Source: a virus
Lineage: Duplodnaviria; Caudoviricetes
Length of the DNA: 64,000 nucleotides
Virus record (IMG/VR): IMGVR_UViG_3300032295_003763
Location: 135,928 to 199,927 of that record
Reading direction: 5' to 3' (one strand)
Positions 1 to 32,550 of this stretch are shown here, piece after piece. How positions within the stretch are numbered: position 1 is the first letter of the stretch; every line of letters begins with the position of its first letter. Under the pieces are notes generated by a model. It did not search any database. It was given only the letters and a program-made list of their open reading frames with translations, and was not told the DNA's origin. A program made the translations under genes and the position numbers.

Positions 1-419
1 TTACCTTGATTGCCTTGAGTACCCTGAACTCCTTGAACACCTTGGGTCCCTTGAACCCCTTGAGTTCCTTGATTGCCTTGAGTACCCTGAACTCCTTGAA
101 CACCTTGGGTCCCTTGAACCCCTTGAGTTCCTTGATTTCCTTGGTTACCTTGATTTCCTTGGTTACCTTGAGTACCTTGAACCCCTTGAGCTCCTTGAAC
201 CCCTTGCGTACCTTGAGCACCATCAAAACCTAAAGTCCCTTGAACTCCTTGAGGACCTTGAGCACCATCAAAACCTAAAGTCCCTTGAACACCTTGAGCA
301 CCTTGAGCACCATCAAAACCTAAAGTCCCTTGAACACCTTGAGCACCTTGAGTACCTTGATTGCCTTGAACTCCCGTATCACCTTGTGTACCCTGGACAC
401 CTTGAGCACCTTGAGCACC
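1..419 (-). repeat. 9-bp Gly-X-Gln codon repeat with higher-order 63-bp and 45-bp units
   Basis: ccttgannn periodicity; 63-bp duplication at about 5-130; GTLGFDGAQ unit x3 at about 211-340. Confidence 0.9.
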
Positions 420-16330: not shown

Positions 16331-19300
16331 TTAAACAAATTGGAATGCAGAAGCATTTGCTCCACCAGTTTTGGTGACTGTGATTCTAGAAATTGCAATT
16401 TGAATACCTCTTGCAGGCTCAACAGCAATATCTATAATCGCCTTGTTTTGATCAATAATTTCAGGTGGATTGTTTGTTTCATCCATTTGTGTGAAGAAGT
16501 TGTAAATACCACCAGCAGATCTTACACCATCTAAGAATGTATCCACAATCGATTTGATTTCCAAACGAGTTGTAGCATCGTTAAATTCAAAGATGTATCT
16601 TGCTAAAATATCTTCAACACCTTCTTCAATTGTGATGAGCAAGTCTCTAACATGAACATTGTTCAAAGCAGAAGGAACTTTCTGATATGCTGTTTGATTT
16701 CCATAAATCATAGTTCCTATTCTCGCTCTCTTAACAATTGGGTTTAAACCAAATGGTTCGAGTGACTCGCGATCTCCGTCTGACAAATCTATTTCAGGAC
16801 CTACCAATCTACTATCGGACAAGATACCTCTTCTAGGACCTGCAACGATTGAATATGGGAAACCATTAATAAATTTGAGAACAAAATTATTAGAAACATG
16901 TGCAGCAGGAGGAACTGTTAAATTCTTAGTTCCATCTCTCAATATCAAGTATGGGAAGAAGAATGCTGCATGTTTCGCTCCATTCAATTCATCAGGTAAT
17001 GAATATGAGAAGCTTGGTCCAAGAGTCTGATTACCACCTGTTGCAATATATGATGTATTCAAAAGTGGTCTTGGGTTTCCACCTACTGGATCTGGTTCAT
17101 CTGTAAATCTAGGATCTGTAGATGCCTCAAATTGTTTAGCAGAAGGAGGATTCAAGATAGCCAAACACTTAAGTCTTTCCTTTGCTAATTTAGCAAGGAT
17201 ATTCTTAGGATAGTTGTTTGGTTGTAAACCACCATCAAAAGTATCAATAATATAACGGAATTGAATTACATCTCTACTTGTAAGAGCTTCGAATAAGTTA
17301 GTATTCTCAAGAACTTCATAAATTTTCTCCATTTGAGATTGTTTATTTGTTCTATCTCCAGGTAAGTGATATGATGTAAGTTTGAATCCGCTTAATCCAG
17401 AGAATTCATATGTACTTACGAAATCATCAATATTCTTATATCTAGTAACTGTTTTATCACCAGCACCAAATTCATTATTTATAAGAATAGGTTGATTTAC
17501 TGTATAACGGAATCTGAAAAGAGATGTCAATTCATCAAAGATCTTTCTCTTTCTGATGATTTTTGTAAGTCTATAAACATCTGCACCTTCGTCATCTGTA
17601 GTATATGATACTAAATATTGGCCTACTTCCAATCCTACTGCGTCTTCTACATTAATATCTACTTCAGATTTTGTACCGTTCCATGATTGAACTACAAAAG
17701 TTGCGGAGAAAGAATCCGCTAAAGGATAAATATAGAAATCACCACCAGTATTCACAGAACCTGCTTTTTCATAATTCAATATATCAATGAAAGGTCCTAT
17801 TTGAGTATATGTTCCAGTTACCGCACCTTGTAAGTTAAGTGCTACAGCAGGTTCACCAGAGTTATTTGTTGTAATAACCGTCGATCCATCAAATACATCT
17901 GTGATTTCAACTGTTGCATCCGCTGTAATATCCCCGCCTGTTCCATCAGCTGTATAGTATCCAATAACTTGGAATATTTCATTACCAGTACTTGTAGATG
18001 CACCCATATAATCAAGTTCAGCTACAAAGCTACCTGTAGCTAAATTAGTACCATTACCAGGTGCACTCAAAGCCCAGTATGTTGTACCAACAACATATGC
18101 AGCATCAGGCTGACCTGTAAGTGCAGCATTTACTTCAATGTATGTAGTAGATTCTGTTACAACTGTACTTAAAGTACTATCTTCATATGCTCTAATTTCT
18201 AAAACAGGAACACCATCAGTATCTGTGGTTTTAATGTATTTTAAGAAATAAAAGTCTGTAGGGCTATAATAATACTTATCACCATCTACTAAGAATCCTG
18301 AATCATAATCTTTATAAACTTGTGAATACTGATAACAGACAAATCTATTTACAGTACCACTTGTGTTAAAAGTAATCAAATCTGGTGTATAAGCGATAGT
18401 TATTTGATCTCCTGATAAATCTGGAAATTCTTGAGCACCAAAAGTAGATGTGTAATAACTAGGATTCAAAGACATATCCTGTAAAGAAATTATGTTATTT
18501 ACAGGAACAATAGTATTTGTTGATCCATTAAGAATAGGAGCATCATTCACATCAACATAGAATGTTGTTGTATCTACTTTATTCTTAATTAATACTTCAT
18601 CACCATCATCTATAGATGCTGTGTGATCTCCACTCAAAGTTACAGATGACAAGAATGTAACAACTACACTTGCACTTGTAGTCGCATTAGCTGACATTGT
18701 TACAACACCACTTGTAATATCTGTGATATAAGTACCAGAAGGAATACCTACACCTGAAAGTGGTTGATTTACACGGAGTTGCGTAGTTGAAGTAGGTGTG
18801 AATGTATCATCACCTGATGTCAACGCTACTGTTTGTGTAGTTGTAAATGAAGCACCTAATACATTTACAGGTGTCATTGTCAATTCACCTGATTTATTTG
18901 GATGTGAGAATGTAATCTTCAGTACTGTATTGCCATTTGAATCTAAAGTTTCTTGCTTAGATTCAACTTTTGCCCAGTTTCCACTATCCATTTCTATTAA
19001 TGAACCACCAACTGTCAAATTGCTTACGATAAACTGATATTCAGCATATTTTGCTACTGATGTAGATAAAGGACGCTTAAGAACTAATACATTCTTAAAT
19101 GCACCCAAAATACCTTTACCTTTATATGATTCAGTATAGAAATCACCAGAAGTTTCTGCATCATATACAGTTGTATCGAAAGAACCTGTTTTTTCTGTGA
19201 ATTGGAATTCTTCCTTTACATTTGTCTTATATGATAACATATCTAAATAGTCTACAGTATATGCAGGGTCAGCCAAGTGGTGACCAACTACATCATATCT

Positions 19301-20236
19301 TGAAGTAGAAGTTTCATAATCAGCTAAAGCTTCTTTATTGAATGCTAAAAATACTCCAGTTGTAGCTACGCTATTATTAACAATCGTATCAAGAGAATGG
19401 TTAACACCATTACCGTCAACAAAATCAGGTATCAAACATCCTGTAAATCTTGCAACTGTATTAATTTCTTCAGAAGACAAGAATGCATTCAATTGTGATT
19501 TAAGAATACCTCTATCACTGAAATACTTTGAGAATACAGGATCAGTTGCAAGTTTCTTATAGTTTGTCCAATTACCTTGAACTATAATAACTTCAACAAA
19601 ATAATCTGCTATATAATCGAATTCTTCAATGTATGCTGGTTTCTCTTCTCCTGATTGACCGTACCAATCACGAGCTGTGATATCAAAGCCATTTACTGCT
19701 GTTTTCTTTATGATAACAGATAAAGGACCTTGACTCAAATTCACAACATGCAACAATTTACCCGTATTAAGAGCATTTGCATTTGCAATTGCAATCATAT
19801 TACTTTCATCTGGGAACCAGAATCTTTGGGTATTATAAAAGTTTGAATAAAGAGCTTTAGTTACAATACCGTTTGATTCAGCGGTATCAACCGAGAATGA
19901 TCTATACTCAACCGCATCTCCGCCTTGAGTAATAGGTTGATTATTAAGTGGTAACAAATTGAGACCAAATACTGGTCCAATTTCCAAACATGTAAATAAT
20001 GATCTATGGAAGAAACTACCTCTTGATTCCAAGAAGGGATCTATTTCTCCAAATATTCGTCTCGCAGTCTTCACATCTGGAAGGTATACTGGGGAGTTGA
20101 AAGGTCCTTTTCTTGAGAAACCTACAACAAGACGAACAGTCTGAGTATTCAATATAATACTTTCTGAAGCGTCAAATTCTAATGTGTATACACCAGATGC
20201 TTTGAACTGGGTCAAATCCAGTTTAATCTTAGCCAT
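16331..20236 (-). CDS. gp18: Tail sheath protein, 1301 aa, with large insertions
   Basis: SGVYTLE, VGFSRKGP, VPPAAHV, AGPRRG, LNPI, GNQT, VHVRDLL, FEFND; ATG 20236 preferred over TTG 20263. Confidence 0.93.
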   Translation of the reverse strand: MAKIKLDLTQFKASGVYTLEFDASESIILNTQTVRLVVGFSRKGPFNSPVYLPDVKTARRIFGEIDPFLESRGSFFHRSLFTCLEIGPVFGLNLLPLNNQPITQGGDAVEYRSFSVDTAESNGIVTKALYSNFYNTQRFWFPDESNMIAIANANALNTGKLLHVVNLSQGPLSVIIKKTAVNGFDITARDWYGQSGEEKPAYIEEFDYIADYFVEVIIVQGNWTNYKKLATDPVFSKYFSDRGILKSQLNAFLSSEEINTVARFTGCLIPDFVDGNGVNHSLDTIVNNSVATTGVFLAFNKEALADYETSTSRYDVVGHHLADPAYTVDYLDMLSYKTNVKEEFQFTEKTGSFDTTVYDAETSGDFYTESYKGKGILGAFKNVLVLKRPLSTSVAKYAEYQFIVSNLTVGGSLIEMDSGNWAKVESKQETLDSNGNTVLKITFSHPNKSGELTMTPVNVLGASFTTTQTVALTSGDDTFTPTSTTQLRVNQPLSGVGIPSGTYITDITSGVVTMSANATTSASVVVTFLSSVTLSGDHTASIDDGDEVLIKNKVDTTTFYVDVNDAPILNGSTNTIVPVNNIISLQDMSLNPSYYTSTFGAQEFPDLSGDQITIAYTPDLITFNTSGTVNRFVCYQYSQVYKDYDSGFLVDGDKYYYSPTDFYFLKYIKTTDTDGVPVLEIRAYEDSTLSTVVTESTTYIEVNAALTGQPDAAYVVGTTYWALSAPGNGTNLATGSFVAELDYMGASTSTGNEIFQVIGYYTADGTGGDITADATVEITDVFDGSTVITTNNSGEPAVALNLQGAVTGTYTQIGPFIDILNYEKAGSVNTGGDFYIYPLADSFSATFVVQSWNGTKSEVDINVEDAVGLEVGQYLVSYTTDDEGADVYRLTKIIRKRKIFDELTSLFRFRYTVNQPILINNEFGAGDKTVTRYKNIDDFVSTYEFSGLSGFKLTSYHLPGDRTNKQSQMEKIYEVLENTNLFEALTSRDVIQFRYIIDTFDGGLQPNNYPKNILAKLAKERLKCLAILNPPSAKQFEASTDPRFTDEPDPVGGNPRPLLNTSYIATGGNQTLGPSFSYSLPDELNGAKHAAFFFPYLILRDGTKNLTVPPAAHVSNNFVLKFINGFPYSIVAGPRRGILSDSRLVGPEIDLSDGDRESLEPFGLNPIVKRARIGTMIYGNQTAYQKVPSALNNVHVRDLLITIEEGVEDILARYIFEFNDATTRLEIKSIVDTFLDGVRSAGGIYNFFTQMDETNNPPEIIDQNKAIIDIAVEPARGIQIAISRITVTKTGGANASAFQFV

Positions 20237-20284
20237 AATTAAGAAGCATAATTTTTCCTCCAATAGAGGTCGTTTTCTATTTTC

Positions 20285-20431: not shown

Positions 20432-20761
20432 TTATTTATTTTTAGAAAAGTAGAATTTTAAAATGTTTAATAAGGACGGTCTTTTAAATTCTGAACGATA
20501 GATTTCTTTAGCAAATGCCTCCTTTACAGCCATTCTATCGAAATCTTTAATTTCTTTCAAAGAGTCTTCATATAATCTTTCAATATATGATTCATTCTTA
20601 AAAATGATACTAGACGAAGATTGCTTTCTATTATCTAGGATTCTAGATCTATTTTTAGAATTTGATTTCAGAAATATGATGGTGTTTTCTACACCATTTT
20701 CATCTAAAACCTTGATAGCATCATCTTCGACAATAACTGAAACATCATTATGATATTCCAT
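20432..20761 (-). CDS. Hypothetical protein
   Basis: 109-aa ORF with its own promoter and terminator. Confidence 0.65.
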   Translation of the reverse strand: MEYHNDVSVIVEDDAIKVLDENGVENTIIFLKSNSKNRSRILDNRKQSSSSIIFKNESYIERLYEDSLKEIKDFDRMAVKEAFAKEIYRSEFKRPSLLNILKFYFSKNK

Positions 20762-20801
20762 ATTTTCCTCTTTTATTATTTAGAAATAATATATTCAATT
20801 A

Positions 20802-20832
20802 CAAATATAGTATAAAGAATAATAAAAACAAA
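20802..20832 (-). promoter_or_regulatory. Bacteroidota-type host promoter
   Basis: TTTG-N19-TATATTTG. Confidence 0.65.
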
Positions 20833-20833
20833 A

Positions 20834-21637
20834 TTATATTTTCAATTTCAATAAAGATAATAAAAGCTCTTCGGTTGATGCCTTTGGTATGTCTAATGGA
20901 TTACAACCATGTTTCATAGAAAAATAAATATCAGCACCCCTTAGCCTCTCTTCATATTTTTCATCCTTTTGTATAGTAGTATTTCTAAATTCAGATCCAT
21001 CTCCAATATATTGATGCGCATTTGCAATATCTGCAAAATACCAAAAAGGTGGATGTAATTCTTCTTTAATTATTCTATACGTAAAATCTACATGCTCATG
21101 TATATTATAAAATCTTTCGTCCAAATAACCTACTCTTTCTATACACTCTCGATGCATATACATTAAAGGACCTGAACACCAATGATAAAAACAAATTTGA
21201 ATATCATTATAATCAACACAATATACTGGAGTAGGGTGGTTGATTGTCCCATCACTATGTCTATTAGCATTACCATAACCCTGTAATGCATAATTGAAAT
21301 GTTTTATACCAGATATCTCAGATGCTTCAATATATTTTTGAAAAATAGAGGTATCCTTAATAACTATATCATCTTCTAGTATAAATATATGCTCACAACC
21401 TTGACCCATCAAATATCGTATAGCCGAGTTTTTAGCTATGGCTACACCTTTATTTATAGAGTGTTGTATAACATCATATCTATTTTGATAAATAGAATGA
21501 TCATACGGTGTTCCATCATTTACTATAACAACATTCTCAATGAAATCTGGAAGTGTATTAAGTAATGATTGTAGTCTAGTTGGAGAATTATATGTTGTAA
21601 TCCCAATACCTATTTTTTTATAATCTATTTGTTCCAT
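20834..21637 (-). CDS. GT2-family glycosyltransferase
   Basis: IGITTYN, IVNDG, GVAIAKN, ILEDD, VGYLDERF, EHVD. Confidence 0.88.
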   Translation of the reverse strand: MEQIDYKKIGIGITTYNSPTRLQSLLNTLPDFIENVVIVNDGTPYDHSIYQNRYDVIQHSINKGVAIAKNSAIRYLMGQGCEHIFILEDDIVIKDTSIFQKYIEASEISGIKHFNYALQGYGNANRHSDGTINHPTPVYCVDYNDIQICFYHWCSGPLMYMHRECIERVGYLDERFYNIHEHVDFTYRIIKEELHPPFWYFADIANAHQYIGDGSEFRNTTIQKDEKYEERLRGADIYFSMKHGCNPLDIPKASTEELLLSLLKLKI

Positions 21638-22121
21638 AATATTCTGGGTCTATTATTGCTAAACCTTTTTCTTGTAAATTATAAATATCAAAGTGTTTAG
21701 ATGTTAAATAATAATATGCTTTTCCAATATTTGACAATAAATTATCACAATGGATTATATCAAAATTGTGGTATATCTGAACTTTAAGATCTATACTTTC
21801 CTCAGTAACTTCATAAAAATGAGGTAAAAAATTATAGTTAGGCTTATAATTCCCATAACCAATTCTATCTGTTACTAAATCGGTTATTGTGTAAAGATCC
21901 ATTAAAGTCAAATGAACAAATCCTTTCATTATCGGAATAACATCGCTATAATTATAATAGGATTCTTCGTTTTTATCATTTATCGTAAGAATATTATTTT
22001 CTAGTACATTTAAAACCTTAGATATACCTGATTTTGTTATTACAAAGGTACCAGGCGTTATTGCAGTTTTAAGAAGATCTACGTCATCCCTTTTAACATG
22101 AGTTATCATATCAATCCTCAC
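21618..22121 (-). CDS. Hypothetical phage protein
   Basis: C-terminal [14 protein letters not shown] resembles the HFD..L..KGLA motif recalled from Bacteroidota phage proteins. Confidence 0.6.
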
Positions 22122-23115
22122 ATATTCTCTTTAAAGATTCTAATTGGTCTGGTGTTAAATCTTGTTTCGGTATGTGTAGTTTAACTCTTATGTATGTTTT
22201 ACCACCAACAAAAGGACCTTCACACAAACGTATTAGAGTATCTGTATCAAACCATTTTTCTATATAATAAGTATATTTATAATCTTTATCATTAAACATA
22301 CTTATATTTTTTGATGAACCTGTGACTAAATCAATATATCGTACTTCATCAGTAATAACAATGTCATTACCCACTCTTTCATGATTATCTTCAGGTTGTT
22401 CAATTACCTTTATTATAACATCACCCCTATGTCCTCTTTGATTTGGAGATTCATGACCTCCATGTCGTATCCTTAACGCTGTAGTTTTATCTATACCCTT
22501 TGGTATATCAACGATAATTGTAAAGTCCTCTAATAAAAATCCATCTTTACATCCTGGAGGACATGTTTCTTTTCTTCTTTTAATTGAACCCGCACCTTTA
22601 CAAGTATTACAAGGCTGTCGCTGTTCTACTCTAAAATAGCCATTACCCCTAACTTCAACAACAACTCCGCTCCCACCACAATTATTACATCTTACATGTG
22701 TATCTGCACAACTACTACACCAAGTTTTTCTTTTATACTTAACAGTTTTCTTAGCACCAAAAGCAGCATCCTTTATACTGCAATAACAATCAACTTCTAA
22801 CGGTGGTATAGCTACTTCCCTTCTTTCAAATACTTCTTCAGTAAAACTAAATCCAGAAAAGAAACCATCCGTTGATGAAAACATATCACTCCAATTACCA
22901 GAAAAACTATTACCTGAACTTTGGAAATCATATTGTTTTCTTTTAGTAGCATCAGATAATACTTGATATGCTTCATTGATTTCTTTAAATCTTTCTGCAC
23001 CTTCTGGATTTTTATCTGGATGATATTTCAAAGATAATGTTCTGAATGCTCTCTTAATTTCGTCTTGAGTTGCACCTGAATTCAATTCTAGTATTTCGTA
23101 ATAATTCTTTTTCAT
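22111..23115 (-). CDS. dnaJ: DnaJ co-chaperone (class A architecture)
   Basis: J-domain with HPD, G/F-rich linker, CxxCxGxG zinc-finger repeats, C-terminal domain. Confidence 0.93.
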
Positions 23116-23160
23116 TTAAGAAGCTCTTTGTGGATTTTATATTATATCTTAAAATATAAT

Positions 23161-23191
23161 TTTGTTTTTATTATTTTTTTTCTTATCTTTG
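23161..23191 (+). promoter_or_regulatory. Bacteroidota-type host promoter, probably giving a leaderless mRNA
   Basis: TTTG-N19-TATCTTTG ending 4 nt before ATG 23196. Confidence 0.7.
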
Positions 23192-23195
23192 TTCT

Positions 23196-23906
23196 ATGAA
23201 AATAAAAAATACATTTTTAGAATTAGTAGGAACTACTGTTCCTCATGGATATGAATCTTTGATCTATCCTTTATTACCTAAGCACGATTTAGATCCCTTC
23301 GGTAATGCTTACATACATATAGGTGATACCAAACCTAAAGTAATGTTTACTGCACACTTAGATACCTTTAGTAAAGGAGATCCTGAAAAAATCAATCATA
23401 AAATTTCAGGCAATATAATAAAAACTAATGGTAAAACAATACTAGGAGCAGATGATAAAGCAGGCGTTGCACTATTAATTTCTATGATTGAAGCTCAAGT
23501 ACCTGGCCTTTATTATTTTTTCACTGCTGAAGAAGTAGGTAGATACGGTTCAAGATTTGCCGCTGAATCTCATGAATTTAATAGTTTAGGATCAAAGATA
23601 AAAAATGTAATTAGTTTTGATCGTAAAGGATATAATTCAATTATAACGCACCAGTCGAATATCAGAACTTGTGATGATAAATTTGCAATGAAATTATCAT
23701 CAGATTTTAAAAATTATGGAATTAACCTAGAATTAGATTCAAATGGAAGCTATACAGATTCCTTTAGTTTTTTAGATAAAAAGAATATTAAAAACTGTAC
23801 AAATATCTCAGTAGGTTATTTTAACCCTCATAGTAATAAAGAAACTCAAGATATTGAGTTTTTACAAAAGCTTTCAGACGCTTGTATATCTATGAATTGG
23901 GATTAA
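23196..23906 (+). CDS. Zn-dependent peptidase/hydrolase, M20/M28 clan
   Basis: FTAHLDT, GADDKAG, AEEVG, SFDR, GYFNPH. Confidence 0.85.
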   Translation: MKIKNTFLELVGTTVPHGYESLIYPLLPKHDLDPFGNAYIHIGDTKPKVMFTAHLDTFSKGDPEKINHKISGNIIKTNGKTILGADDKAGVALLISMIEAQVPGLYYFFTAEEVGRYGSRFAAESHEFNSLGSKIKNVISFDRKGYNSIITHQSNIRTCDDKFAMKLSSDFKNYGINLELDSNGSYTDSFSFLDKKNIKNCTNISVGYFNPHSNKETQDIEFLQKLSDACISMNWD

Positions 23907-23907
23907 A

Positions 23908-23936
23908 CAAAAAAACCCATCGAATCCGATGGGTTT
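23908..23936. terminator. Terminator between convergent genes
   Basis: aaacccatcg-aatc-cgatgggttt. Confidence 0.8.
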
Positions 23937-23954
23937 AGATTGTTTAATTAAGAA

Positions 23955-24674
23955 TTAATATAGGCCACTTCTCATTTTACCAGCACCCATGCCCTTTTCA
24001 CTATAAGATTCTTTTTCATAATCAGGAGTTTCCAAAGATTCTTCAAATTGAGAAACCAATTCTTCAAGTTTAACTGAAGTCCCAATTATCTTCTTTCTGA
24101 AAGAAGAAAGCCAATCTGAGATTCTATCTTTAATTTTTACATACCATGGTTTCTTCATTTCCATTTCTTCTGCTTCTGTTACACCTTCAGCGGAAGCATC
24201 TTCTCTTTTTACACTTAAACTAGAACTAACTTCTACAGGTTGCTTAAATGCACTCTCTGTTTTAAGTTTATTAATTAGTTCTTTACCACCTTCTAATTCT
24301 AATTCAATAATCTCTAACATCAATTTTTGTGATGGTGGATTCCAGCGTAAAGTACCCTTTCTATGTTTTAAAACTAATCCGTGAACTTTGTGATTTGATT
24401 TATTAATAGATTCCATTGCTATTTTAATATCTTCAAGCAATCTCCCTTCATGTTGTTTCAAATCAGCTACATTCAATTCCTTTTCCAACTCTTCGATTTT
24501 TTTTGTAACTAAATCCATTTGATCCATTACACTCTTGAGCTCTTCAATTTTTTCATCTAATTTCTGTACCGATAGAGTCCATACTTTAGTATGTTCAGGA
24601 CTACCTATTGAAAATTCTTGCATTTCATCAGAATCCTCAAAGGATTCGAAAAGTTTTACATACTTTTGTGTCAT
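23955..24674 (-). CDS. Coiled-coil protein, candidate internal head/ejection protein
   Basis: MTQKYVKLFESF N-terminus; late promoter. Confidence 0.65.
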   Translation of the reverse strand: MTQKYVKLFESFEDSDEMQEFSIGSPEHTKVWTLSVQKLDEKIEELKSVMDQMDLVTKKIEELEKELNVADLKQHEGRLLEDIKIAMESINKSNHKVHGLVLKHRKGTLRWNPPSQKLMLEIIELELEGGKELINKLKTESAFKQPVEVSSSLSVKREDASAEGVTEAEEMEMKKPWYVKIKDRISDWLSSFRKKIIGTSVKLEELVSQFEESLETPDYEKESYSEKGMGAGKMRSGLY

Positions 24675-24696
24675 ATTCGATTTTTTATATTTTTTC

Positions 24697-24704
24697 TATA
24701 TATC
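24697..24704 (-). promoter_or_regulatory. Putative late promoter GATATATA
   Basis: Exact motif 22 nt upstream of 24674. Confidence 0.7.
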
Positions 24705-24966
24705 ATTTACCTTTGATGATTTTATTAACTTCATCAAGGATATTTTTTTCAAAATTCTTAGCTTCTTCTTCAAGTTTAGCAACCTTCATAGTAATTTCAA
24801 GTTGTTTAGATCGAACATCGAGCAATAGACATTTTTGTTCTTCTGTTAAATTATTATACCAATTTATATACACATGTGGAGATATTCTTGATGCCTCATA
24901 CACGAGAATAAATTCAGCAATAAATTCTACTAAATCATCATATTCAAATAAATTATCATCTGACAT
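24703..24966 (-). CDS. Hypothetical protein
   Basis: 87-aa ORF with promoter motif upstream. Confidence 0.6.
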   Translation of the reverse strand: MSDDNLFEYDDLVEFIAEFILVYEASRISPHVYINWYNNLTEEQKCLLLDVRSKQLEITMKVAKLEEEAKNFEKNILDEVNKIIKGK

Positions 24967-24999
24967 ATTTCAATCCTTATTATAATTAATCAGTTATAT

Positions 25000-25093
25000 T
25001 ATATATCACCTTTTTTCATGTGCATTGTAAATTATCACATTATTTTCTAATTAACAATAATTCTACCCTATTATTTTAAATGCTAGATATATA
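25000..25093. promoter_or_regulatory. Back-to-back late promoters: GATATATA on minus (25000-25007) and on plus (25086-25093)
   Basis: Each copy faces its divergent downstream gene. Confidence 0.7.
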
Positions 25094-25114
25094 AAATAAA
25101 ATTAGAAATTCTGA

Positions 25115-25834
25115 ATGGAAATTTTACAAAGAGCACCTGAATTTGTCGGTCAGTCTGCTTTAGATAATTCAGAGATACAAACTATTGATATTGTAGATAT
25201 TATAATTAATAATACTGATTACAATAGACCACGTGATGCAAAAAGATATACATTTGTTGAATTATTAGTTTCTGGTAATTATACAGATATTTTAGGATAT
25301 GCAGGTGAATTTGAAAATTCACCTGGTGGAAATGTATCAGCAAAGGGGAATGATCTTATACTTTTTAATAAAATTACAAAAGAACAGTTTCTTACATTAA
25401 TAGTAAATTCTACATATAATTCTAGTGAAGATACTACTACTATAACAGTAAAAACCTTAGATTCATCTATATCGAAAATCCAAAAATTGAATAATACTTG
25501 GGATAACTGGAATATAATATTATCATGTGGGTTAGATTGGGTTCAAACAATAGTTGAATGTGCGGATGCTACTGATTTAATATCTACATTTATTACAAGA
25601 AATAGCGTTCAATTACAATGGAAGTCTGGATTTGGAGCAGAAGTAAATTATATTAGATTGAAAACAAGAGATACTGCTGATTGGTCTATTTATAATTCAT
25701 CTGGTTCAAATTCTTATTTAAAAATATTTGGATTAATTCCAAACACAAGATATGATTGGCAGATTTGTTCGACTTGCGAATTAACTAAGTCCAACTTTTA
25801 TTCAGCAATTCAGACATTTGAAACCCAACCTTAA
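25115..25834 (+). CDS. Protein with C-terminal fibronectin type III-like domain
   Basis: SVQLQW..Y.IR...GLIPNTRYDWQI...FET. Confidence 0.7.
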   Translation: MEILQRAPEFVGQSALDNSEIQTIDIVDIIINNTDYNRPRDAKRYTFVELLVSGNYTDILGYAGEFENSPGGNVSAKGNDLILFNKITKEQFLTLIVNSTYNSSEDTTTITVKTLDSSISKIQKLNNTWDNWNIILSCGLDWVQTIVECADATDLISTFITRNSVQLQWKSGFGAEVNYIRLKTRDTADWSIYNSSGSNSYLKIFGLIPNTRYDWQICSTCELTKSNFYSAIQTFETQP

Positions 25835-25849
25835 AAATAATACTTACTT

Positions 25850-26548
25850 ATGAGTGGTAAAACTCGAAGACTACAACGTTCCGCTAAAACTAATTCTAAT
25901 GAATTAAGAAAATCGATTCAATTAACACCTAATCAAAGGAAATTTGCAGAAGCAATAGAAAACAATCAAATAATCATTTGCACAGGTCCTGCTGGAACTG
26001 CAAAAACTTTTGTGACTATGTATACATCTTTAAAACTTATAGGTGCACGTGAATATGATAAAGTAATAATCACTAAGCCTGCTCAAGAGTCTGGAGAGAA
26101 ATTAGGTTTTTTACCTGGTGATATTGATGAAAAAATAGCACCCTATATGGAATCTTTTATCACTACTCTAGAAAAAATGATTGGTAAAGTAGAAACAAAG
26201 CAATTTGTAGAAAAGGGTTTTATTGAACCTAGACCATTAGCCTATATGAGAGGGTCAACATTTGATAGATCAATCATGATATTAGATGAAGCCCAAAATT
26301 GTGATTTAAGACAACTTATATTATTTGTTACTAGAATGGGCGAAACTTCAAAAGTTATCATTTGTGGAGATGTTGAACAATATGATATTGCAAAAAATCA
26401 GTCTGGATTGAATGATTTTATGAAAATTATTGAGAAAATTGACGGTGCATCTACTTTTAATTTTGATAGATCAGATATTGTTCGTTCTAAAATACTCGTA
26501 GATATTACTGATAACTATAATAAATGGAAGTTAAAAAACAATAAATAA
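25850..26548 (+). CDS. phoH: PhoH-like ATPase
   Basis: GPAGTAKT, LGFLPG, YMRGSTF, LDEAQN, TRMG, GD..Q.D, DIVRS. Confidence 0.95.
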   Translation: MSGKTRRLQRSAKTNSNELRKSIQLTPNQRKFAEAIENNQIIICTGPAGTAKTFVTMYTSLKLIGAREYDKVIITKPAQESGEKLGFLPGDIDEKIAPYMESFITTLEKMIGKVETKQFVEKGFIEPRPLAYMRGSTFDRSIMILDEAQNCDLRQLILFVTRMGETSKVIICGDVEQYDIAKNQSGLNDFMKIIEKIDGASTFNFDRSDIVRSKILVDITDNYNKWKLKNNK

Positions 26549-26551
26549 TAA

Positions 26552-26559
26552 GATATATA
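26552..26559 (+). promoter_or_regulatory. Putative late promoter GATATATA
   Basis: Exact motif 23 nt upstream of 26583. Confidence 0.7.
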
Positions 26560-26582
26560 AGTAATAATTTTCAAAAAGACTT

Positions 26583-27422
26583 ATGTATTTATTTGCAAAC
26601 ACAGCTTCTCTAAATAATTCAACAATAGATAATCTCATTACATTTTTTACCACATTTGGTAGTGTAGGGGGATTATCTATTATTGTTTTCTGCTTTTCAT
26701 TATTTATTGGATATAAATATTTCATCTATAAACTAGAACAAAACAGAGACAAAACTGAAAAGGATTTAGAAGAAGCTAGAGAAAAGATAGATGCTTTAAA
26801 TAATCAATTATCTCAAACTAAATTATCATATGAGCTTCAAATCAAAGATATCATTAATGATGAAAAGGTAGAATCTATTAAAGAAGCCTCTAAATTAAGA
26901 AGCCATCCATTCTTTCAATCATGTGAATACTGGATAACAAGAGTAGAATTATTTCCACATAGAGACCGATTTAGACATACTGTTTTCGTAGATTATGTAA
27001 GTATATTTTTAAGAAATGGAAAGGAAGTATGGGAAGAGCTTATTGAAGATTTAGTTCCTACTATAGAAGATCTTTCAACTATGGAATTATACTCAAGACT
27101 AGTCAAATTACTCCATAGAAAGAATACCTTAACCGAACAAGAATGTAAAGATCTGGGTATACCAGATGTATTTATAGATAAAGTTTCTGAAGAATGGAAT
27201 GGTTCAACAGAAAAGATATTATATGTGTGCATATCATCAATATGTAATTCAGATAGATTTGAGTCTAACGCAAATCGAATAGCCGTTATATTGAATTTAA
27301 TGACTGCTTTATATGAAATTATCGTATTTGAAGCAGAATCTTTAGTTGAAGAACTCAATGGTGAACTTGAAGGAGCTATGTATAAAGGTATGATATGCTG
27401 CGAAAAAAAACCTAATAATTGA
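26583..27422 (+). CDS. Membrane-anchored coiled-coil protein, possibly lysis-related
   Basis: N-terminal hydrophobic helix, coiled coil, soluble domain. Confidence 0.6.
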   Translation: MYLFANTASLNNSTIDNLITFFTTFGSVGGLSIIVFCFSLFIGYKYFIYKLEQNRDKTEKDLEEAREKIDALNNQLSQTKLSYELQIKDIINDEKVESIKEASKLRSHPFFQSCEYWITRVELFPHRDRFRHTVFVDYVSIFLRNGKEVWEELIEDLVPTIEDLSTMELYSRLVKLLHRKNTLTEQECKDLGIPDVFIDKVSEEWNGSTEKILYVCISSICNSDRFESNANRIAVILNLMTALYEIIVFEAESLVEELNGELEGAMYKGMICCEKKPNN

Positions 27423-27423
27423 T

Positions 27424-27960
27424 ATGTCAAAAGATTGTGATAACTTTGGTGATTTTTTTGTTTATAGACTTGAAAACATTTTATTAAAAGGTCTTAGAAA
27501 AGAATCTAATAAACAACTCATTTCAAGAGTAATAAAAAACAACGAAGACTTTATTAAGAGTGAATTTAATTTTTACTTAAGTAATAAGGTTAAGGCACTT
27601 ACCCCACCTAAAAGATCTAAGTTTTGGAACTTTATTTTAGAAAGTTGGAGACCCGTTATGATGTATTTATTTATGTATATTATTGGTCAATACTATATTA
27701 TTAACCCTATTATTGAATTCACATGGCCTAGTATAGAACTTAAAGAACTTCCACCAGAAATGTGGACTTTATTAACTGTTGCAGTAGGTGGTTATATTAC
27801 CTCTAGAGGCGTAGAAAAGGGTATAAAAATATGGAAGGGAAGGGATGAATCCCCAGTCATTTTAGCTGATAATATGAATGGTATTCCAGATTCTTCATAC
27901 GAAGGGACTCCTTTAGATGAAGAAGAATTTTCTGAAGAAAAAGAAGACGATTTAGCTTAA
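27424..27960 (+). CDS. Putative holin (3TM holin-like)
   Basis: SWRP motif, hydrophobic helices, LPPEMWTLL..GGY..SRGVEK. Confidence 0.65.
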   Translation: MSKDCDNFGDFFVYRLENILLKGLRKESNKQLISRVIKNNEDFIKSEFNFYLSNKVKALTPPKRSKFWNFILESWRPVMMYLFMYIIGQYYIINPIIEFTWPSIELKELPPEMWTLLTVAVGGYITSRGVEKGIKIWKGRDESPVILADNMNGIPDSSYEGTPLDEEEFSEEKEDDLA

Positions 27961-27963
27961 TAA

Positions 27964-27995
27964 TTTGGAATTATTAAATAATTTAATTACATTTG
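27964..27995 (+). promoter_or_regulatory. Bacteroidota-type host promoter
   Basis: TTTG-N20-TACATTTG. Confidence 0.7.
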
Positions 27996-28029
27996 CTACA
28001 ATTTAAAAATAAAGTAGCAAAGAGGAATT

Positions 28030-28759: not shown

Positions 28760-30502
28760 TTATACCAATGTACCGCCATCAAGAGCAATGTAGAATGTAT
28801 AATACATTGTTTGTGGAAGTTGACCTGCTTCAACAAGAGCATAACGGCTCTTAACTGCGATCTTTGGTGACATTGTACCTTCAGAAATTGTCTGAATTGG
28901 TTCTGCCATCAAATAAGGCATGAATTTCAAACCTGGCTCTTCGTCTGTACCTTTGCGACCAACAAGAACGCGAGTATCTGTCCATTCCATGTTAGGATCA
29001 ACATATACTGTCATACCTGCCAATGTTCCGATAGGATAAAGAGAACCATTGTTTTGATTGATTGTGTTTGCCATAGGAGCAAATGTGAATTGTGCAACAT
29101 CTGCAAGTGCTGTAGCAACGTGAGCATTTGTAACAACAAAGTTTGCTGGACCACGACGGCCACGTGAAGCGATAATGTTACCAGCTGCAAGAATCTTGGA
29201 AACAACACGGCGTTGAACTGTTGACAAGTTCTCGAAACCTGTTGAGTTTACAAGGTAGAAATCGTTAACATCGATTGCAAGACCTGCAGCAGCTTTACCT
29301 GTATAAGTAACAGATGTTGTTGTTGCTGTTGAATCCAATGAGAAGTTCATAGTTTCGCCCATAACTTGCCAGAATTCATAGTTGTTTGACCAACCAAGAG
29401 CAAATGCACGACCTAAGATGTGCTTGTTGATAGATTGTGAAATCTCGTTAACAAGTGCATTCTCAACCATAGCAACAACATCAATACCATACTGACGATT
29501 CAAATCTTGAATTTGCTCAGTTGTGATAGATGCTGCAACTTGGTAAGTTGTTGCTTCTACGAATTTTGTATAAGCTTTCAAGCCCATAACGCGATAGTAG
29601 GTAGATTCACCAGTACCACGATCCATTGGCTGATAGCTTTGTGAAGGACTTACTAAGTCACCTTGCCAGTTATCTGCATCAGTTGGACCTGCACCTGAGA
29701 AACCATGAATATGGTTTTCAAGAGCATTCACCAAAGAAGCTGTTGCTGCAGTTGCAACGAATGTTGCTGAACCACCTGTTGTATTTGTTGGAAGACCACC
29801 GCTATTTGTTGTAATAACTGCATCACCATTCAATACATCTGCTACTGTAATAGTATCATTTGCTACTTTAGAAGCTGCTGCATCTGAAGCATATGTAACA
29901 CTATATGTTGCCATAACTCTAAAAATAGGAAGACCAGAAATACGTGACTTACCGATATATTTCAATTCAATTGCATCGTATGTTCCGTTATCCATGTTTG
30001 TAGGATATGCTGCAACAGCACTTGTATCAACTGCCCAATATGTTGTACCAACAACAAGAGCACCTGCTGGAATTGTTACTGTAGCTGACAATTCAATGAT
30101 TTCTGGCTTAGTTGCGCTGTCTGTTTTACCACCAGCATATACATAATCAAGATATGTAAGAACGCCAGCAGGACCTGACATAGGAACAACATTAACAATG
30201 TCAAAACCTACTGTCTTAGCAGCTACTTGAATAGCCAAAGGAAGAAGTGATGGGAATTTATCACCAGAACCTTGGTTTGATGATGTGTAGAAACCAGATG
30301 CGCCACCACCAAAAGTTGGAGCAGCTACTGCACCCATACCTGGTGTACCACCAAGAGTTTGGTAAGCAGATGATTCATTTAAGGTGTGATAGTGGCAATA
30401 TTTAGAAAGCCAGTTGAGTTTTTCACGATCCTTAATACCAGTCTGGGACTCAATAATAGGAGACCAGGTTTCGTGGATTTTTGCTTCATTTAAAACTTGC
30501 AT
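28760..30502 (-). CDS. gp23: Major capsid protein, T4 gp23-like
   Basis: V.PMSGPAG, TTEQIQDL..YGID, EI..SINK, RRG.ANF, GTLAGMTVYVDP, FMPY, PKIAVKSRYAL. Confidence 0.93.
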   Translation of the reverse strand: MQVLNEAKIHETWSPIIESQTGIKDREKLNWLSKYCHYHTLNESSAYQTLGGTPGMGAVAAPTFGGGASGFYTSSNQGSGDKFPSLLPLAIQVAAKTVGFDIVNVVPMSGPAGVLTYLDYVYAGGKTDSATKPEIIELSATVTIPAGALVVGTTYWAVDTSAVAAYPTNMDNGTYDAIELKYIGKSRISGLPIFRVMATYSVTYASDAAASKVANDTITVADVLNGDAVITTNSGGLPTNTTGGSATFVATAATASLVNALENHIHGFSGAGPTDADNWQGDLVSPSQSYQPMDRGTGESTYYRVMGLKAYTKFVEATTYQVAASITTEQIQDLNRQYGIDVVAMVENALVNEISQSINKHILGRAFALGWSNNYEFWQVMGETMNFSLDSTATTTSVTYTGKAAAGLAIDVNDFYLVNSTGFENLSTVQRRVVSKILAAGNIIASRGRRGPANFVVTNAHVATALADVAQFTFAPMANTINQNNGSLYPIGTLAGMTVYVDPNMEWTDTRVLVGRKGTDEEPGLKFMPYLMAEPIQTISEGTMSPKIAVKSRYALVEAGQLPQTMYYTFYIALDGGTLV

Positions 30503-30531: not shown

Positions 30532-32550
30532 TTAACGATTGAATTTGTTTGCTAATTGACTTGCTATGTTTGCAACGAAATCGCTGTTATATCCCAAGTC
30601 ATTAGCGTTACCTACATCAAACTTATTATTTACTGACTCATTAAGATTTACAGTCTTGCCTTTCATTTGATCAAGACCTCTTGTTGACCAGAAATTTTTA
30701 ATTTGATATGCCGTATCCAAACGATACATTTTAGATTGTGCAACGATGCGATTCTTTTCATCTGTATTCATAGATTCCCAAATTGGAGCAAATTCTACAG
30801 GCATTTCCTGTATCCATTTTGGAGCACCATTACTAGATGTTGTCAATGCATTATTCCAAATTCTAATAATATCGCTTTCGCCAAACCAAACACTCTCATT
30901 CAACGCTTTGACGACCTTTTGTTTTTTAGTTTCATCAAGAGCAAGGAAATCGTTTTGTCTAGATTCACTCAAGAGTGACATGAATTGATAGTTATTCTTT
31001 TTAGCTACGGCTTCTACCTTTTGTTTTCTGACAGATTCCAATATAGCATCAATTCTCTCATCGAGTGGTCTATCTTGATTTATATTTAAAGATGTGTTTT
31101 CATTAATTGATTCATTTACAGATTCATTTACAGATTCATTTACTGGATTTGTATTTTCAACAAAACCACCATTAATACTTTCTGCTACATATTCAGTATA
31201 ACGAATAGTATTTTCTAAATGCTCAGACAAATAATCATTGTGTTGAATTGATTTATCCAATGTTTCTGCTAAGTAGTTTGAATACTTTTGTGTATTATCT
31301 ACATTTTCAGCAATATAATCAGCATATTGTAAACCAATATCTAATTTCTCTGAAAGATAATTTGAATAACGGATGTTCTTATCTAAATTTTGTGCCAAAT
31401 AATCTGAATAATTTTGTGATTTATTAAGATTTTCAGCCAAATAGTTTGAATATTGAATACCTTTATCCAAGTTTTCAGCAATATATTCTGTGTAACGAAT
31501 AGCTTCGTTAGTTTTCTTCGCTTGAACTTCAACTTCTTCACCAACATGTTCAGTATATTGGATACTCTTATCCAAACTTTCTGCCAAATAGTTAGTGTAT
31601 TTTTGTGTTCTTTCAACATGTTCAGCAATATGCTCTGAGTAATTAATTGAATTATTTACATTTTCAGCAATATAATTACTATAATCACGAACACTTTGGG
31701 TATTTTCCGCAAGATAATTCGAGTATTCAATGACTTGATCAAGTTTTTCTGCCAAGTAATTAATATACTTAGTCATACGCTCAAACTCTGTTAAGAAATT
31801 CGCCGAAGTTTCGGATACATTTCCAGTCTTCATCTCATCGAGACGCTTTGTGATTCTCTCGAATTCTTTACGGATCTCTTTTGAGTAGTCATTCAAGACT
31901 TCCTCGGTTACATAATGATCCATTTTAGAAGGTTGATTTTTAGATTGCGGTTCTAGATTATCAATAGCATCTTCGACACTCGCATATTTTGAACTCATAT
32001 CATAAATATTGATTGATTCGTTTGTAAATCCCAAAGATTCATTCAATCTTGAGAGTTGTGCATTTGCAAATCCAGGATCTGCAACAAGGTCATATGTAAA
32101 AATTCTTTTAATTTTTACAGATTTATCGGATTCAACGACACCAGCTGCTCTTGATGAAATTGACAATTGAACACCATCATCAATTAAAGCACGAGCATCT
32201 TTACCTGAACGTGTAGATAAAAGACGAACCTTACCAACAACTTGTCTTTTGCCATTATCATATTCAAGACTTTCAATAAGATGTGAAGCTTGTGATAAAC
32301 GAACTTCAAAGTCTTGAGGATGATCCAATTGACCAGTAAGATTACCTAGTTTGATTTTCTCTTGTAGATAATCTAAATGTGGAAGGTATTCCTTTTCTTC
32401 ATAAATTCTTCGGTTATTATTCTCAACGCCAAATTGACAGAATACACCTTCTAAGATATATCTATCATTTTCTTTGTCTTTAACCTGTAATTTATGATTG
32501 CTATTTTCAACAATCAGAACAACTTTTTGTCCATCGAGTGTCATATCCAT
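30532..32550 (-). CDS. gp21: Prohead protease (gp21-like) fused to a scaffold-like coiled coil
   Basis: NNNRRIY, GQLDHP, SH, ISSRAAG, YDLVADPG, then 14-aa repeats. Confidence 0.9.
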   Translation of the reverse strand: MDMTLDGQKVVLIVENSNHKLQVKDKENDRYILEGVFCQFGVENNNRRIYEEKEYLPHLDYLQEKIKLGNLTGQLDHPQDFEVRLSQASHLIESLEYDNGKRQVVGKVRLLSTRSGKDARALIDDGVQLSISSRAAGVVESDKSVKIKRIFTYDLVADPGFANAQLSRLNESLGFTNESINIYDMSSKYASVEDAIDNLEPQSKNQPSKMDHYVTEEVLNDYSKEIRKEFERITKRLDEMKTGNVSETSANFLTEFERMTKYINYLAEKLDQVIEYSNYLAENTQSVRDYSNYIAENVNNSINYSEHIAEHVERTQKYTNYLAESLDKSIQYTEHVGEEVEVQAKKTNEAIRYTEYIAENLDKGIQYSNYLAENLNKSQNYSDYLAQNLDKNIRYSNYLSEKLDIGLQYADYIAENVDNTQKYSNYLAETLDKSIQHNDYLSEHLENTIRYTEYVAESINGGFVENTNPVNESVNESVNESINENTSLNINQDRPLDERIDAILESVRKQKVEAVAKKNNYQFMSLLSESRQNDFLALDETKKQKVVKALNESVWFGESDIIRIWNNALTTSSNGAPKWIQEMPVEFAPIWESMNTDEKNRIVAQSKMYRLDTAYQIKNFWSTRGLDQMKGKTVNLNESVNNKFDVGNANDLGYNSDFVANIASQLANKFNR
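31170..31767 (-). repeat. 14 x 14-aa repeat (consensus YSNYLAENLDKSIQ)
   Basis: Read from the translation; one unit has a 7-aa insertion. Confidence 0.9.

What the first reader, a model, noticed from the sequence alone, without database searches (positions are those of the whole stretch)
17845..18115. Tail sheath carries a copy of a ~90-aa module of this phage's major capsid protein
Seen: sheath P.AAYVVGTTYWA..TN...G....ELDYMG.S..G..IFQV...Y...TVEITDVFDGSTVITTNNSGEP is colinear with capsid P.GALVVGTTYWA..TN...G....ELKYIG.S..G..IFRV...Y...TITVADVLNGDAVITTNSGGLP (29785-30075). Similarity persists in DNA: 23/24 nt at 18072-18095 versus 30033-30056, and an exact 16-mer at 17863-17878 versus 29803-29818. 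The capsid copy lies in the variable region after PMSGPAG, where T4-type proteins carry their surface insertion domain. Inference: head and tail display the same surface domain, possibly a shared docking site for decoration or collagen fibres, or a shared glycosylation site. I do not know of a described capsid-to-sheath domain transfer.
Basis: partly seen in the sequence, partly recalled or inferred. Interest (0 to 1): 0.85.

Follow-up and report, generated by a model that had tools for sequence, protein, structure and literature searches.

The report
Capsid surface domain copied into tail sheath
A roughly 110-residue beta-barrel domain from the surface insertion of this uncultured giant phage's major capsid protein also sits in the variable outer part of its tail sheath; relatives show it has moved from capsid to sheath at least twice, and that the capsid copy is swapped between phages like a cassette.

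Summary
Sheath residues 704-810 (window 17834-18154, minus strand) and capsid residues 129-242 (29777-30118, minus strand) are homologous: 39% identity over 104 aa, E 2e-12, shuffle z = 17. These are the only two copies in the 200-kb contig.

- **The copies are old and not each other's closest relatives.** Synonymous sites are saturated. The 23/24-nt and 16-nt DNA matches are two conserved peptides, VVGTTYWA and VITTN, written in a biased codon usage. The sheath copy is 55-61% identical to capsid modules of sister phages but only 39% to its own capsid.
- **The capsid is the donor.** Every capsid of the family carries the module, at the position of the T4 insertion domain. In sheaths it is sporadic: it occupies three different sites in a mosaic centre and comes from at least two capsid lineages (AU test p = 0.0002).
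- **The capsid copy is a recombining hypervariable cassette.** Capsid pairs are 94-98% identical outside it and 36-43% identical inside it.
- **Head and tail copies do not co-vary** in any of 8 genomes, and the capsid-specific loop GKSRIxGxPIF is lost in sheath copies. This argues against a shared docking site.

The fold is a small beta-barrel, modelled at pLDDT 94. Its best structural matches are Gp23-type capsids of related phages. What the domain does in the sheath is not shown.

The parts
16331..20236 (-). Tail sheath gene. The open frame runs up to a TTG at 20263; the probable start is the ATG at 20236 (1301 aa). The N-terminal (~1-365) and C-terminal (~820-1310) parts form the conserved core, and the centre is a mosaic of outer domains.
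   Evidence: PF17482 hit. The C-terminus aligns with T4 gp18 492-649 at E 1e-16. Relatives align from residue 10, and the N- and C-terminal parts are about 86% identical across relatives while the centre is rearranged.
17834..18154 (-). Capsid-derived beta-barrel module in the sheath (residues 704-810 of the 1310-aa frame). Measured against module-less sheaths, the inserted cassette with its trailing linker (NLQGAVTG...) reaches down to about 17786.
   Evidence: BLASTP E 2e-12 against the phage's own capsid. Profile domain E 2e-41. Clean presence/absence against P0153 and P0154. AlphaFold2 pLDDT 93.9. Best structural matches are Gp23-type capsids. Translation checked.
17804..19171 (-). Variable central region of the sheath (about residues 365-820), which holds the module and other shuffled outer domains.
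   Evidence: Pairwise comparisons with P0158, P0144, P0156, P0145, P0146 and P0153 show rearranged, duplicated or missing blocks only in this region.
28760..30502 (-). Major capsid protein of T4 gp23 type (580 aa).
   Evidence: PF07068 at E 8e-40. In the AlphaFold2 model the best solved match is T4 gp23, Z 20.6, 271 residues aligned.
29777..30118 (-). Capsid copy of the module (residues 129-242), at the insertion-domain position. It is hypervariable cassette 1 of the capsid.
   Evidence: Profile domain E 1e-37. Same order of strands and helix as the sheath model. Position relative to T4 gp23 (PMC9546572). Pairs of capsids 94-98% identical outside it are 36-43% identical inside it. Against L007, nucleotide identity drops from 94-98% to 55-65%.
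29213..29350 (-). Second variable stretch of the capsid (about residues 385-430).
   Evidence: Amino-acid identity falls to 40-54% and nucleotide identity to 53-64% against L007, between flanks of 90-98%. Translation checked.
30532..32550 (-). Prohead protease fused to a long repeat-rich region, directly upstream of the capsid gene. Listed for context only.
   Evidence: PF03420 Peptidase_S77 at residues 24-142, E 3e-11. Repeats are visible in the translation.

Best explanation
The module is a self-contained small beta-barrel. It is the ancestral insertion domain of the gp23-type capsid protein in this group of uncultured giant phages, which are relatives of LR756500, the Lak phages and jumbo phages of Flavobacteriia. 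It was copied from capsid genes into loops of the sheath's non-essential outer region. This happened at least twice, at three different sites, and once into a 1984-aa BNR-repeat protein of a relative. The window's sheath copy has been inherited vertically with the sheath. It descends from a capsid variant still carried by sister phages. The window's own capsid now carries a different, strongly diverged variant, because the capsid domain is exchanged between closely related capsids as a cassette. What is shown: homology, restriction to this phage group, nesting of sheath copies among capsid copies, several insertion sites, cassette behaviour, absence of concerted evolution, and a confident fold. 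What is inferred: in the capsid the domain lies on a neighbouring subunit and forms the surface knob, as the T4 insertion domain does. In the sheath it is an exposed outer decoration that has shed the capsid-specific contact loop. There it most likely acts as one of several interchangeable surface domains that brace the tail or simply clothe it, rather than as a partner of the head copy.
For: 1. Homology: E 2e-12 and shuffle z = 17. An iterated profile finds the module in all 130 capsid homologues collected and in 36 sheath homologues.
2. Restricted distribution: 15 hits in 1.84 billion representatives, all capsids or sheaths except P0167 and one repeat protein matched only in part. There was no hit in Pfam and none in 50,697 phage genomes by tblastn.
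3. Direction of transfer: capsid modules form the deep backbone of the tree and sheath modules nest inside it in two places. A single sheath clade is rejected, with log-likelihood lower by 83 and p-AU 0.0002. Sheaths P0159 and P0156 share the indel signature WGVSF--DP and YTDVT with capsids P0042 and P0048 and are 73-77% identical to them. The sheaths of LR756500 and Lak-A2 lack the module, while the LR756500 capsid keeps weak similarity.
4. Insertion polymorphism: the module sits at about residue 709 in the window, about 634 in P0145, P0159 and P0156, and about 356 in the 1441-aa sheaths. P0144 has two copies and P0153 and P0154 have none.
5. Old copy: synonymous sites are saturated. Even so, the window's sheath module DNA matches the capsid module DNA of L007 and L016 at 68-72% by blastn.
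6. Cassette behaviour in the capsid.
7. Fold: the sheath module is modelled at pLDDT 93.9. Its best matches are the major capsid protein of Tenacibaculum phage pT24 (E 1.8e-3, TM 0.63) and an ESM Atlas Gp23 cluster (TM 0.63, rmsd 3.0 over 93 residues). The capsid model has the same order of secondary-structure elements at 135-234.
8. Outer position: extra sheath domains lie away from the tube and are dispensable (PMC9230969). The T4 I domain clamps a neighbouring subunit (PMC9546572).
9. Third carrier: P0167, in a contig syntenic with this genome, carries the module, but the window genome's orthologue does not.
Against: No structure of an assembled capsid or sheath of this group exists, so exposure and contacts are inferred by analogy. 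The module shows no detectable sequence or fold relation to the T4 insertion domain itself, so the T4 clamp analogy rests on position only. The module tree has only about 110 columns, many forks are unresolved, and it is rooted at the midpoint. One capsid (P0055) falls inside the main sheath clade, which could mean a back-transfer or a tree error. The sheath homologues were collected with a query that contained the module, so the share of sheaths carrying it is biased upward. The motif GTTYW is conserved in both carriers and could be a functional surface patch rather than core.
Confidence: 0.75

Rival explanations
1. Shared docking or modification site. Head and tail display the same domain so that one decoration protein, collagen-like fibre or glycosyltransferase can act on both.
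For: The fold is the same on both carriers. The motif GTTYW and a few other positions are conserved in both. The genome is rich in collagen-like genes and glycosyltransferases according to earlier first-reader notes, and a weak GT-2 gene lies between capsid and sheath in relatives.
Against: Own-genome copies are only 32-64% identical and never each other's best match in 8 genomes. Capsid cassettes are swapped without any matching change in the sheath. Some close sheaths lack the module altogether. The capsid-specific conserved basic loop is lost in sheaths.
Confidence: 0.1
2. Adhesin reading. The barrel is a glycan- or surface-binding domain displayed on head, sheath and a giant BNR protein so that the virion sticks to host envelopes or particles. 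Its variability tracks variable host surface structures.
For: Extreme cassette variability with sharp recombination boundaries suggests diversifying selection on an exposed surface. The third carrier is a BNR-repeat protein. Phage surface domains added to capsid, tail and sheath proteins have been proposed as weak adhesins (PMC9230969; Fraser et al. 2006, from my own knowledge). An invariant aromatic pair, Y-W, is present.
Against: No similarity to any known carbohydrate-binding family. Structural neighbours are generic small barrels with Z no higher than 5.6. The most conserved capsid loop looks like a subunit contact rather than a variable binding site. No experimental data exist.
Confidence: 0.2
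3. Recent intragenomic duplication or gene conversion between the capsid and sheath genes of this phage.
For: A 23/24-nt match and an exact 16-nt match between the two genes.
Against: Overall nucleotide identity is 55% and synonymous sites are at the codon-bias expectation. The sheath copy groups with sheath copies of relatives and with other phages' capsid modules. The module sits at the same sheath site in 22 relatives.
Confidence: 0.02
4. Chance or compositional similarity between Thr/Gly/Ala-rich surface regions.
For: Both regions are rich in T, G, A and S.
Against: BLASTP with composition adjustment gives E 2e-12. Shuffle z = 17. Profile domain E-values reach 1e-41. The confident predicted fold matches capsid models.
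Confidence: 0.01

Closest known systems
Insertion (I) domain of T4 gp23/gp24, the chitin-binding-like domain carried on E-loop-equivalent linkers
   Same: Same host protein family (PF07068; T4 gp23 is the best structural match, Z 20.6). Same topological position, between gp23 residues of about 133 and 246. It is a surface-protruding extra domain and the most variable part of T4-superfamily capsids.
   Different: No detectable sequence relation, and T4 gp23 does not appear among the structural neighbours of the module. The T4 domain is not known to occur in the T4 sheath. Here the domain behaves as a swappable cassette and is also found in sheaths.
Promiscuous Ig-like, FN3 and BIG2 domains on phage virion proteins (Fraser et al. 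2006, J Mol Biol, from my own knowledge; summarised for sheaths in PMC9230969)
   Same: Small, autonomous, surface-exposed beta domains. They occur in capsid, tail and sheath proteins alike, move horizontally, and are dispensable for assembly.
   Different: This module matches no Ig-like Pfam family. Its neighbours are closed small barrels, of HerA N-terminal or EF-Tu domain 2 type, with Z no higher than 5.6. It is confined to one phage group. Its source can be traced to an integral domain of the capsid protein itself rather than to a free-floating domain pool.
Additional outer domains of multi-domain (type 3) tail sheath proteins of large phages
   Same: Inserted between the N- and C-terminal halves of the conserved core. 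Their number grows with genome size and they are variable between relatives.
   Different: The described cases are mostly Ig-like sandwiches of unknown origin. Here one of the outer domains has an identifiable donor, the capsid insertion domain.
Major capsid protein of Tenacibaculum phage pT24 and other jumbo phages of Flavobacteriia
   Same: The capsid is 32% identical over its full length. It is the best BFVD structural match of the sheath module (E 1.8e-3, TM 0.63, 26% identity).
   Different: No BLAST-level match of the module to pT24 or any other deposited phage genome. The sheaths of the two megaphage relatives checked directly, LR756500 and Lak-A2, lack it.

Membership tests
T4 gp23-type major capsid protein (PF07068) | Match to the Gp23 profile above the curated cut-off | tested here: met
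   137.8 bits against a cut-off of 24.4, E 8e-40.
T4 gp23-type major capsid protein (PF07068) | HK97 fold, with T4 gp23/gp24 as the nearest solved structures | tested here: met
   AlphaFold2 model (pLDDT 77.8): 7vrt gp23 Z 20.6, 1yue gp24 Z 18.3, HK97 about Z 15.
T4 gp23-type major capsid protein (PF07068) | Extra domain inserted at the E-loop-equivalent position | tested here: met
   Window 83-124 aligns with gp23 92-133 and window 302 with gp23 246. The module (129-242) lies between them. In T4, I-domain linker 1 spans aa 132-160.
T4 insertion-domain fold (chitin-binding-like) | Sequence or fold similarity of the module to the I domain of gp23/gp24 | tested here: inconclusive
   The profile of 98 modules gives no hit to gp23 or gp24 among PDB sequences. 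gp23 and gp24 are not listed among Foldseek or VIA-align neighbours of the module model. A missing match does not show that the folds differ.
Contractile tail sheath (PF17482 and T4 gp18) | Conserved C-terminal sheath domain | tested here: met
   PF17482 at 30.5 bits against a cut-off of 26.9. T4 gp18 492-649 aligns at E 1e-16.
Contractile tail sheath (PF17482 and T4 gp18) | Extra domains inserted between the conserved N- and C-terminal core parts | tested here: met
   Residues 1-365 and 820-1310 are conserved at about 86%, and the centre is rearranged among relatives. That these inserts face outward is taken from PMC9230969 and was not tested here.
Promiscuous Ig-like phage surface domains (BIG2, I-set, FN3) | Match to an Ig-like Pfam family or an Ig-like sandwich fold | tested here: not met
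   No Pfam hit at E up to 10 apart from noise. Structural neighbours are small closed barrels, not Ig sandwiches.
Diversity-generating retroelement target (variable repeat / template repeat pair) | Two repeats of about 90% nucleotide identity differing at template adenines, plus a reverse transcriptase | tested here: not met
   The two copies are 55% identical at nucleotide level. No RVT_1 match in the 200-kb contig, which is only about 52% of the genome.

The most novel reading that the evidence does not exclude
The capsid insertion domain of these giant phages is a family of allele-like, recombining surface cassettes under diversifying selection. The phages redeploy the same barrel on head, sheath and a giant fibre-like protein as a common exposed functional surface. 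It could be an adhesin for variable host or particle glycans, or a decoy or escape surface against a host factor that recognises virion proteins. That would be a virion-wide surface-variation system, built by domain transfer from the capsid protein itself.
Probability: 0.2. Interest if true: 0.78.

Novelty: new variant of a known kind. Interest (0 to 1): 0.6.

Why it matters
Extra domains on phage capsids and sheaths are common, but their origin is rarely traceable. Here the donor (an integral capsid domain), the recipients (three sites in the sheath and one other large protein) and the number of events (at least two) can be read directly from metagenomic relatives. The same data show a capsid whose shell-forming parts are almost invariant while one surface domain is exchanged as a block. 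That is the signature expected of a surface under strong diversifying selection. It gives a concrete target for structural and binding studies in the uncultured giant phages predicted to infect Bacteroidota. It also warns that capsid-based phylogenies of this group should mask residues of about 125-250 and 385-430.

Tried and rejected
- **Other copies.** None were found in the window or the whole contig by tblastn or by profile search.
- **Pfam naming of the module.** No result, also with wide flanks. A partial profile hit to a Bacteroidota secreted protein made of Flg_new_2 repeats (P0166) covers only 45 profile positions and was dropped by the iterated profile. I treat it as unrelated or too weak to use.
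- **Deposited phage genomes.** tblastn of the sheath module gave no match.
- **Solved structures.** Foldseek against PDB gave nothing at E <= 0.001. VIA-align against 48,161 chains gave only generic small barrels with Z no higher than 5.6, which is within the noise range stated by the tool. The sequence profile against PDB gave nothing.
- **Fetching whole capsid genes beside relatives' sheaths.** The 10-kb flank usually stopped inside the capsid C-terminus, and those records are not held for the genome search. Pairings were therefore made from partial capsid matches and contig lengths.
- **Concerted evolution or gene conversion.** Rejected.
- **Diversity-generating retroelement.** Rejected on nucleotide identity; no reverse transcriptase was found in the fragment.
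- **Complex prediction.** Not run. No specific binding claim is made, and assemblies of capsomers or sheath rings exceed the tool's size limit.
Full report
**What is there**

The window is the last 64 kb of a 199,927-bp viral contig that CheckV estimates at about 52% complete. Its G+C content is 31%. Both genes lie on the minus strand.
- ORF 16331-20263 is a very large tail sheath. It matches PF17482 at its C-terminus, and that region aligns with T4 gp18 residues 492-649 at E 1e-16.
- All relatives align from residue 10, so the real start is probably the ATG at 20236, giving 1301 aa.
- ORF 28760-30502 is a gp23-type major capsid protein (PF07068, E 8e-40). A prohead protease fused to a repeat-rich region lies just upstream.
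- The nearest deposited phages by capsid are the 462-kb metagenomic phage LR756500 (45% identity), the Lak megaphages of Prevotella (37%), and jumbo phages of Tenacibaculum and Flavobacterium (32%).
- Gene order between capsid and sheath (holin-like gene, PhoH, DnaJ, a weak GT-2) is conserved in all related contigs fetched.
- The group may correspond to, or be close to, the aquatic "moraphages" predicted to infect Bacteroidota and noted for DnaJ/DnaK genes (PMC12619734). I could not test that membership.

- Sheath 709-805 and capsid 136-238 align at 39% identity over 104 columns, E 2e-12 with composition adjustment.
- The local alignment score is 17 standard deviations above 2000 shuffles.
- A profile built by iteration delimits the module as sheath 704-810 (17834-18154) and capsid 129-242 (29777-30118).
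- There is no third copy in the contig.

**The copy is old**

Codon-threaded, the two copies are 55% identical in DNA. Of 44 identical residues, 26 use the same codon, and about 23 are expected from the codon usage of these genes. The 23/24 and 16-nt matches are therefore the peptides VVGTTYWA and VITTN written in a strongly biased A+T-rich code. They are not a trace of recent duplication.

**The two copies are not each other's closest relatives**

I collected 120 capsid homologues and 39 sheath homologues.
- The window's sheath module is 55-61% identical (E 1e-30 to 1e-36) to the capsid modules of sister phages such as P0055, P0045, P0047 and P0015. The capsids of these phages are 75-83% identical overall to the window's.
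- The same sheath module is only 39% identical to the window's own capsid module.
- At DNA level, the window's sheath module matches the capsid module of relatives L007 and L016 at 68-72% by blastn.

**Direction and number of transfers**

- Every capsid of the family has the module, down to members about 40% identical. The sheath-module model finds the capsid of Tenacibaculum phage pT24 and an ESM Atlas Gp23 cluster as its best structural matches.
- In sheaths the module is sporadic. It is absent from the LR756500 and Lak-A2 sheaths and from P0153, P0154, P0157, P0160 and P0161.
- Where it is present, it occupies three different sites: about residue 709 (the window and 21 relatives), about 634 (P0145, P0159, P0156) and about 356 (the 1441-aa sheaths). 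P0144 has two copies.
- The alignment shows clean, module-sized gaps at each site.
- In a maximum-likelihood tree of 167 modules, the capsid copies form the deep backbone and the sheath copies nest inside it in two places. One is a main clade. The other is a pair (P0159, P0156) inside a capsid clade with 97% SH-aLRT support.
- That pair shares a distinctive deletion and insertion (WGVSF--DP, YTDVT) with those capsids and is 73-77% identical to them.
- Forcing all sheath modules into one clade costs 83 log-likelihood units, p-AU 0.0002.
- The simplest reading is at least two capsid-to-sheath transfers, plus movement or replacement between sites within the sheath.
- One capsid (P0055) falls inside the main sheath clade without strong support. 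A back-transfer is possible but not shown.
- A third carrier exists. P0167 is a 1984-aa BNR-repeat protein on a contig syntenic with this genome. It holds a diverged copy, and the window genome's orthologue lacks one.
- Outside this group the module is essentially unknown. A profile search of 1.84 billion representatives gave 15 hits, and there is no Pfam family.

**The capsid copy is a swappable cassette**

- Among 53 close capsids, identity outside the module is 81-100% while identity inside it is 32-100%, and the two are only weakly correlated (r = 0.38).
- Some pairs are 94-98% identical outside the module but 36-43% identical inside it, for example P0007 and P0025 at 97.8% versus 39.6%.
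- Along the gene, window versus L007 runs at 94-98% nucleotide identity, drops to 55-65% across residues of about 121-252, and recovers to 94-98%. It dips again at residues of about 385-430.
- Such sharp boundaries indicate block replacement by recombination rather than gradual drift.
- The window's own cassette type sits on a long, fully supported branch shared by 13 capsids. This explains why the phage's sheath copy resembles other phages' capsids more than its own.

**No co-variation of head and tail copies**

In 8 genomes where both genes could be paired, the sheath module is 32-64% identical to its own capsid module and always closer to some other phage's capsid. The sheath copy follows the sheath, while the capsid copy is exchanged independently.

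Column statistics point the same way.
- Positions conserved in both carriers are G, T, Y and W of the GTTYW motif, plus S756, F764, Y770, V790 and P805. They are mostly aromatic or hydrophobic.
- The basic loop GKSRIxGxPIFR is close to invariant across the capsids (R 0.99, I 0.91, G 0.96) but is not conserved in sheath copies.
- I read that loop as a capsid-specific contact that the sheath context does not need. This is inference.

**Fold**

- With 98 module sequences, AlphaFold2 gives the sheath module a pLDDT of 93.9 and a pTM of 0.87. The model has six strands and a short helix.
- The capsid model (pLDDT 77.8) shows the same order of elements at residues 135-234.
- Solved-structure searches give no significant Foldseek hit. 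VIA-align finds only generic small barrels of HerA N-terminal or EF-Tu domain 2/3 type, with Z no higher than 5.6.
- Neither fold search nor a sequence profile links the module to the T4 insertion domain, which is described as chitin-binding-like.
- The module is therefore an insertion domain by position. Window residues 83-124 and 302 onward bracket it exactly as gp23 residues 92-133 and 246 onward bracket the T4 domain and its linkers. It is not demonstrably a homologue of the T4 domain.

**How it most likely works**

- *Established for T4:* the insertion domain forms the surface protrusion and lies on the neighbouring subunit of the same capsomer, interlocking it (PMC9546572).
- *Established for sheaths:* domains inserted between the N- and C-terminal core parts lie away from the tube, are dispensable for assembly, and are proposed to brace the tail or help adhesion (PMC9230969).
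- *By analogy:* the capsid copy is probably an exposed clamp, and the sheath copy an exposed outer decoration.
- The cassette behaviour suggests selection on the exposed face, but the selective agent is unknown.
It gains nothing from the tests it proposed, and the missing co-variation and the lost loop count against it.

**Comparison with what is known**

Sharing of small surface domains between head and tail proteins is known for Ig-like domains (Fraser et al. 2006, from my own knowledge). Four things differ here:
- the domain is not Ig-like;
- it is confined to one phage lineage;
- its donor is an integral domain of the capsid protein;
- it has been donated repeatedly.

I found no description of this in the papers searched. 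That is a limited search and not proof of absence.

**Caveats**

- The tree rests on about 110 columns and a midpoint root.
- The sheath sample was drawn with a module-containing query.
- Some capsid-sheath pairings rest on contig length.
- All relatives are metagenomic assemblies. However, each cassette type recurs in independent assemblies from several sources.
- No assembled-virion structure is available.

Noticed in passing
window 29213-29350 (-): Second variable stretch of the capsid protein (about residues 385-430). Identity to L007 falls to 40-54% at amino-acid level and 53-64% at nucleotide level, between flanks of 90-98%. It is probably another exposed loop that is exchanged or evolves fast.
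   Followed up: partly
window 30532-32550 (-): The prohead protease domain (Peptidase_S77, residues 24-142) is fused to about 500 residues with a dozen or so degenerate repeats built around Y-[ST]-[NE]-Y-[LI]-A-E-x-[LV]. It may be a built-in scaffold or core protein.
   Followed up: no
window 20236-20263 (-): The mechanical sheath ORF starts at a TTG nine codons upstream of the ATG at which all relatives begin. The annotated start should be 20236.
   Followed up: yes
L013:4381-10335 (P0167), and G000:C1:41552-46789, outside the window: A 1984-aa BNR-repeat protein of a related phage carries a diverged copy of the module at residues 1393-1494. The orthologue in this genome is 55% identical but has no module. 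The neighbourhood is rich in ankyrin-repeat genes.
   Followed up: partly
window 20432-28704, with synteny in L010, L012 and L014-L017: The block between capsid and sheath is conserved in relatives. It encodes a DnaJ-type chaperone, PhoH, a holin-like 3TM protein and a weak GT-2. DnaJ/DnaK genes are a noted trait of the aquatic 'moraphages' predicted to infect Bacteroidota (PMC12619734).
   Followed up: partly
module model m8e4317ed40ca (window 17819-18166): Weak structural resemblance of the module to terminal domains of phage collagen-repeat proteins: BFVD probabilities 0.57-0.75, and an ESM Atlas row with TM 0.47 and rmsd 2.7 over 68 residues. This genome encodes several collagen-like proteins. 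The scores are too weak to interpret.
   Followed up: no
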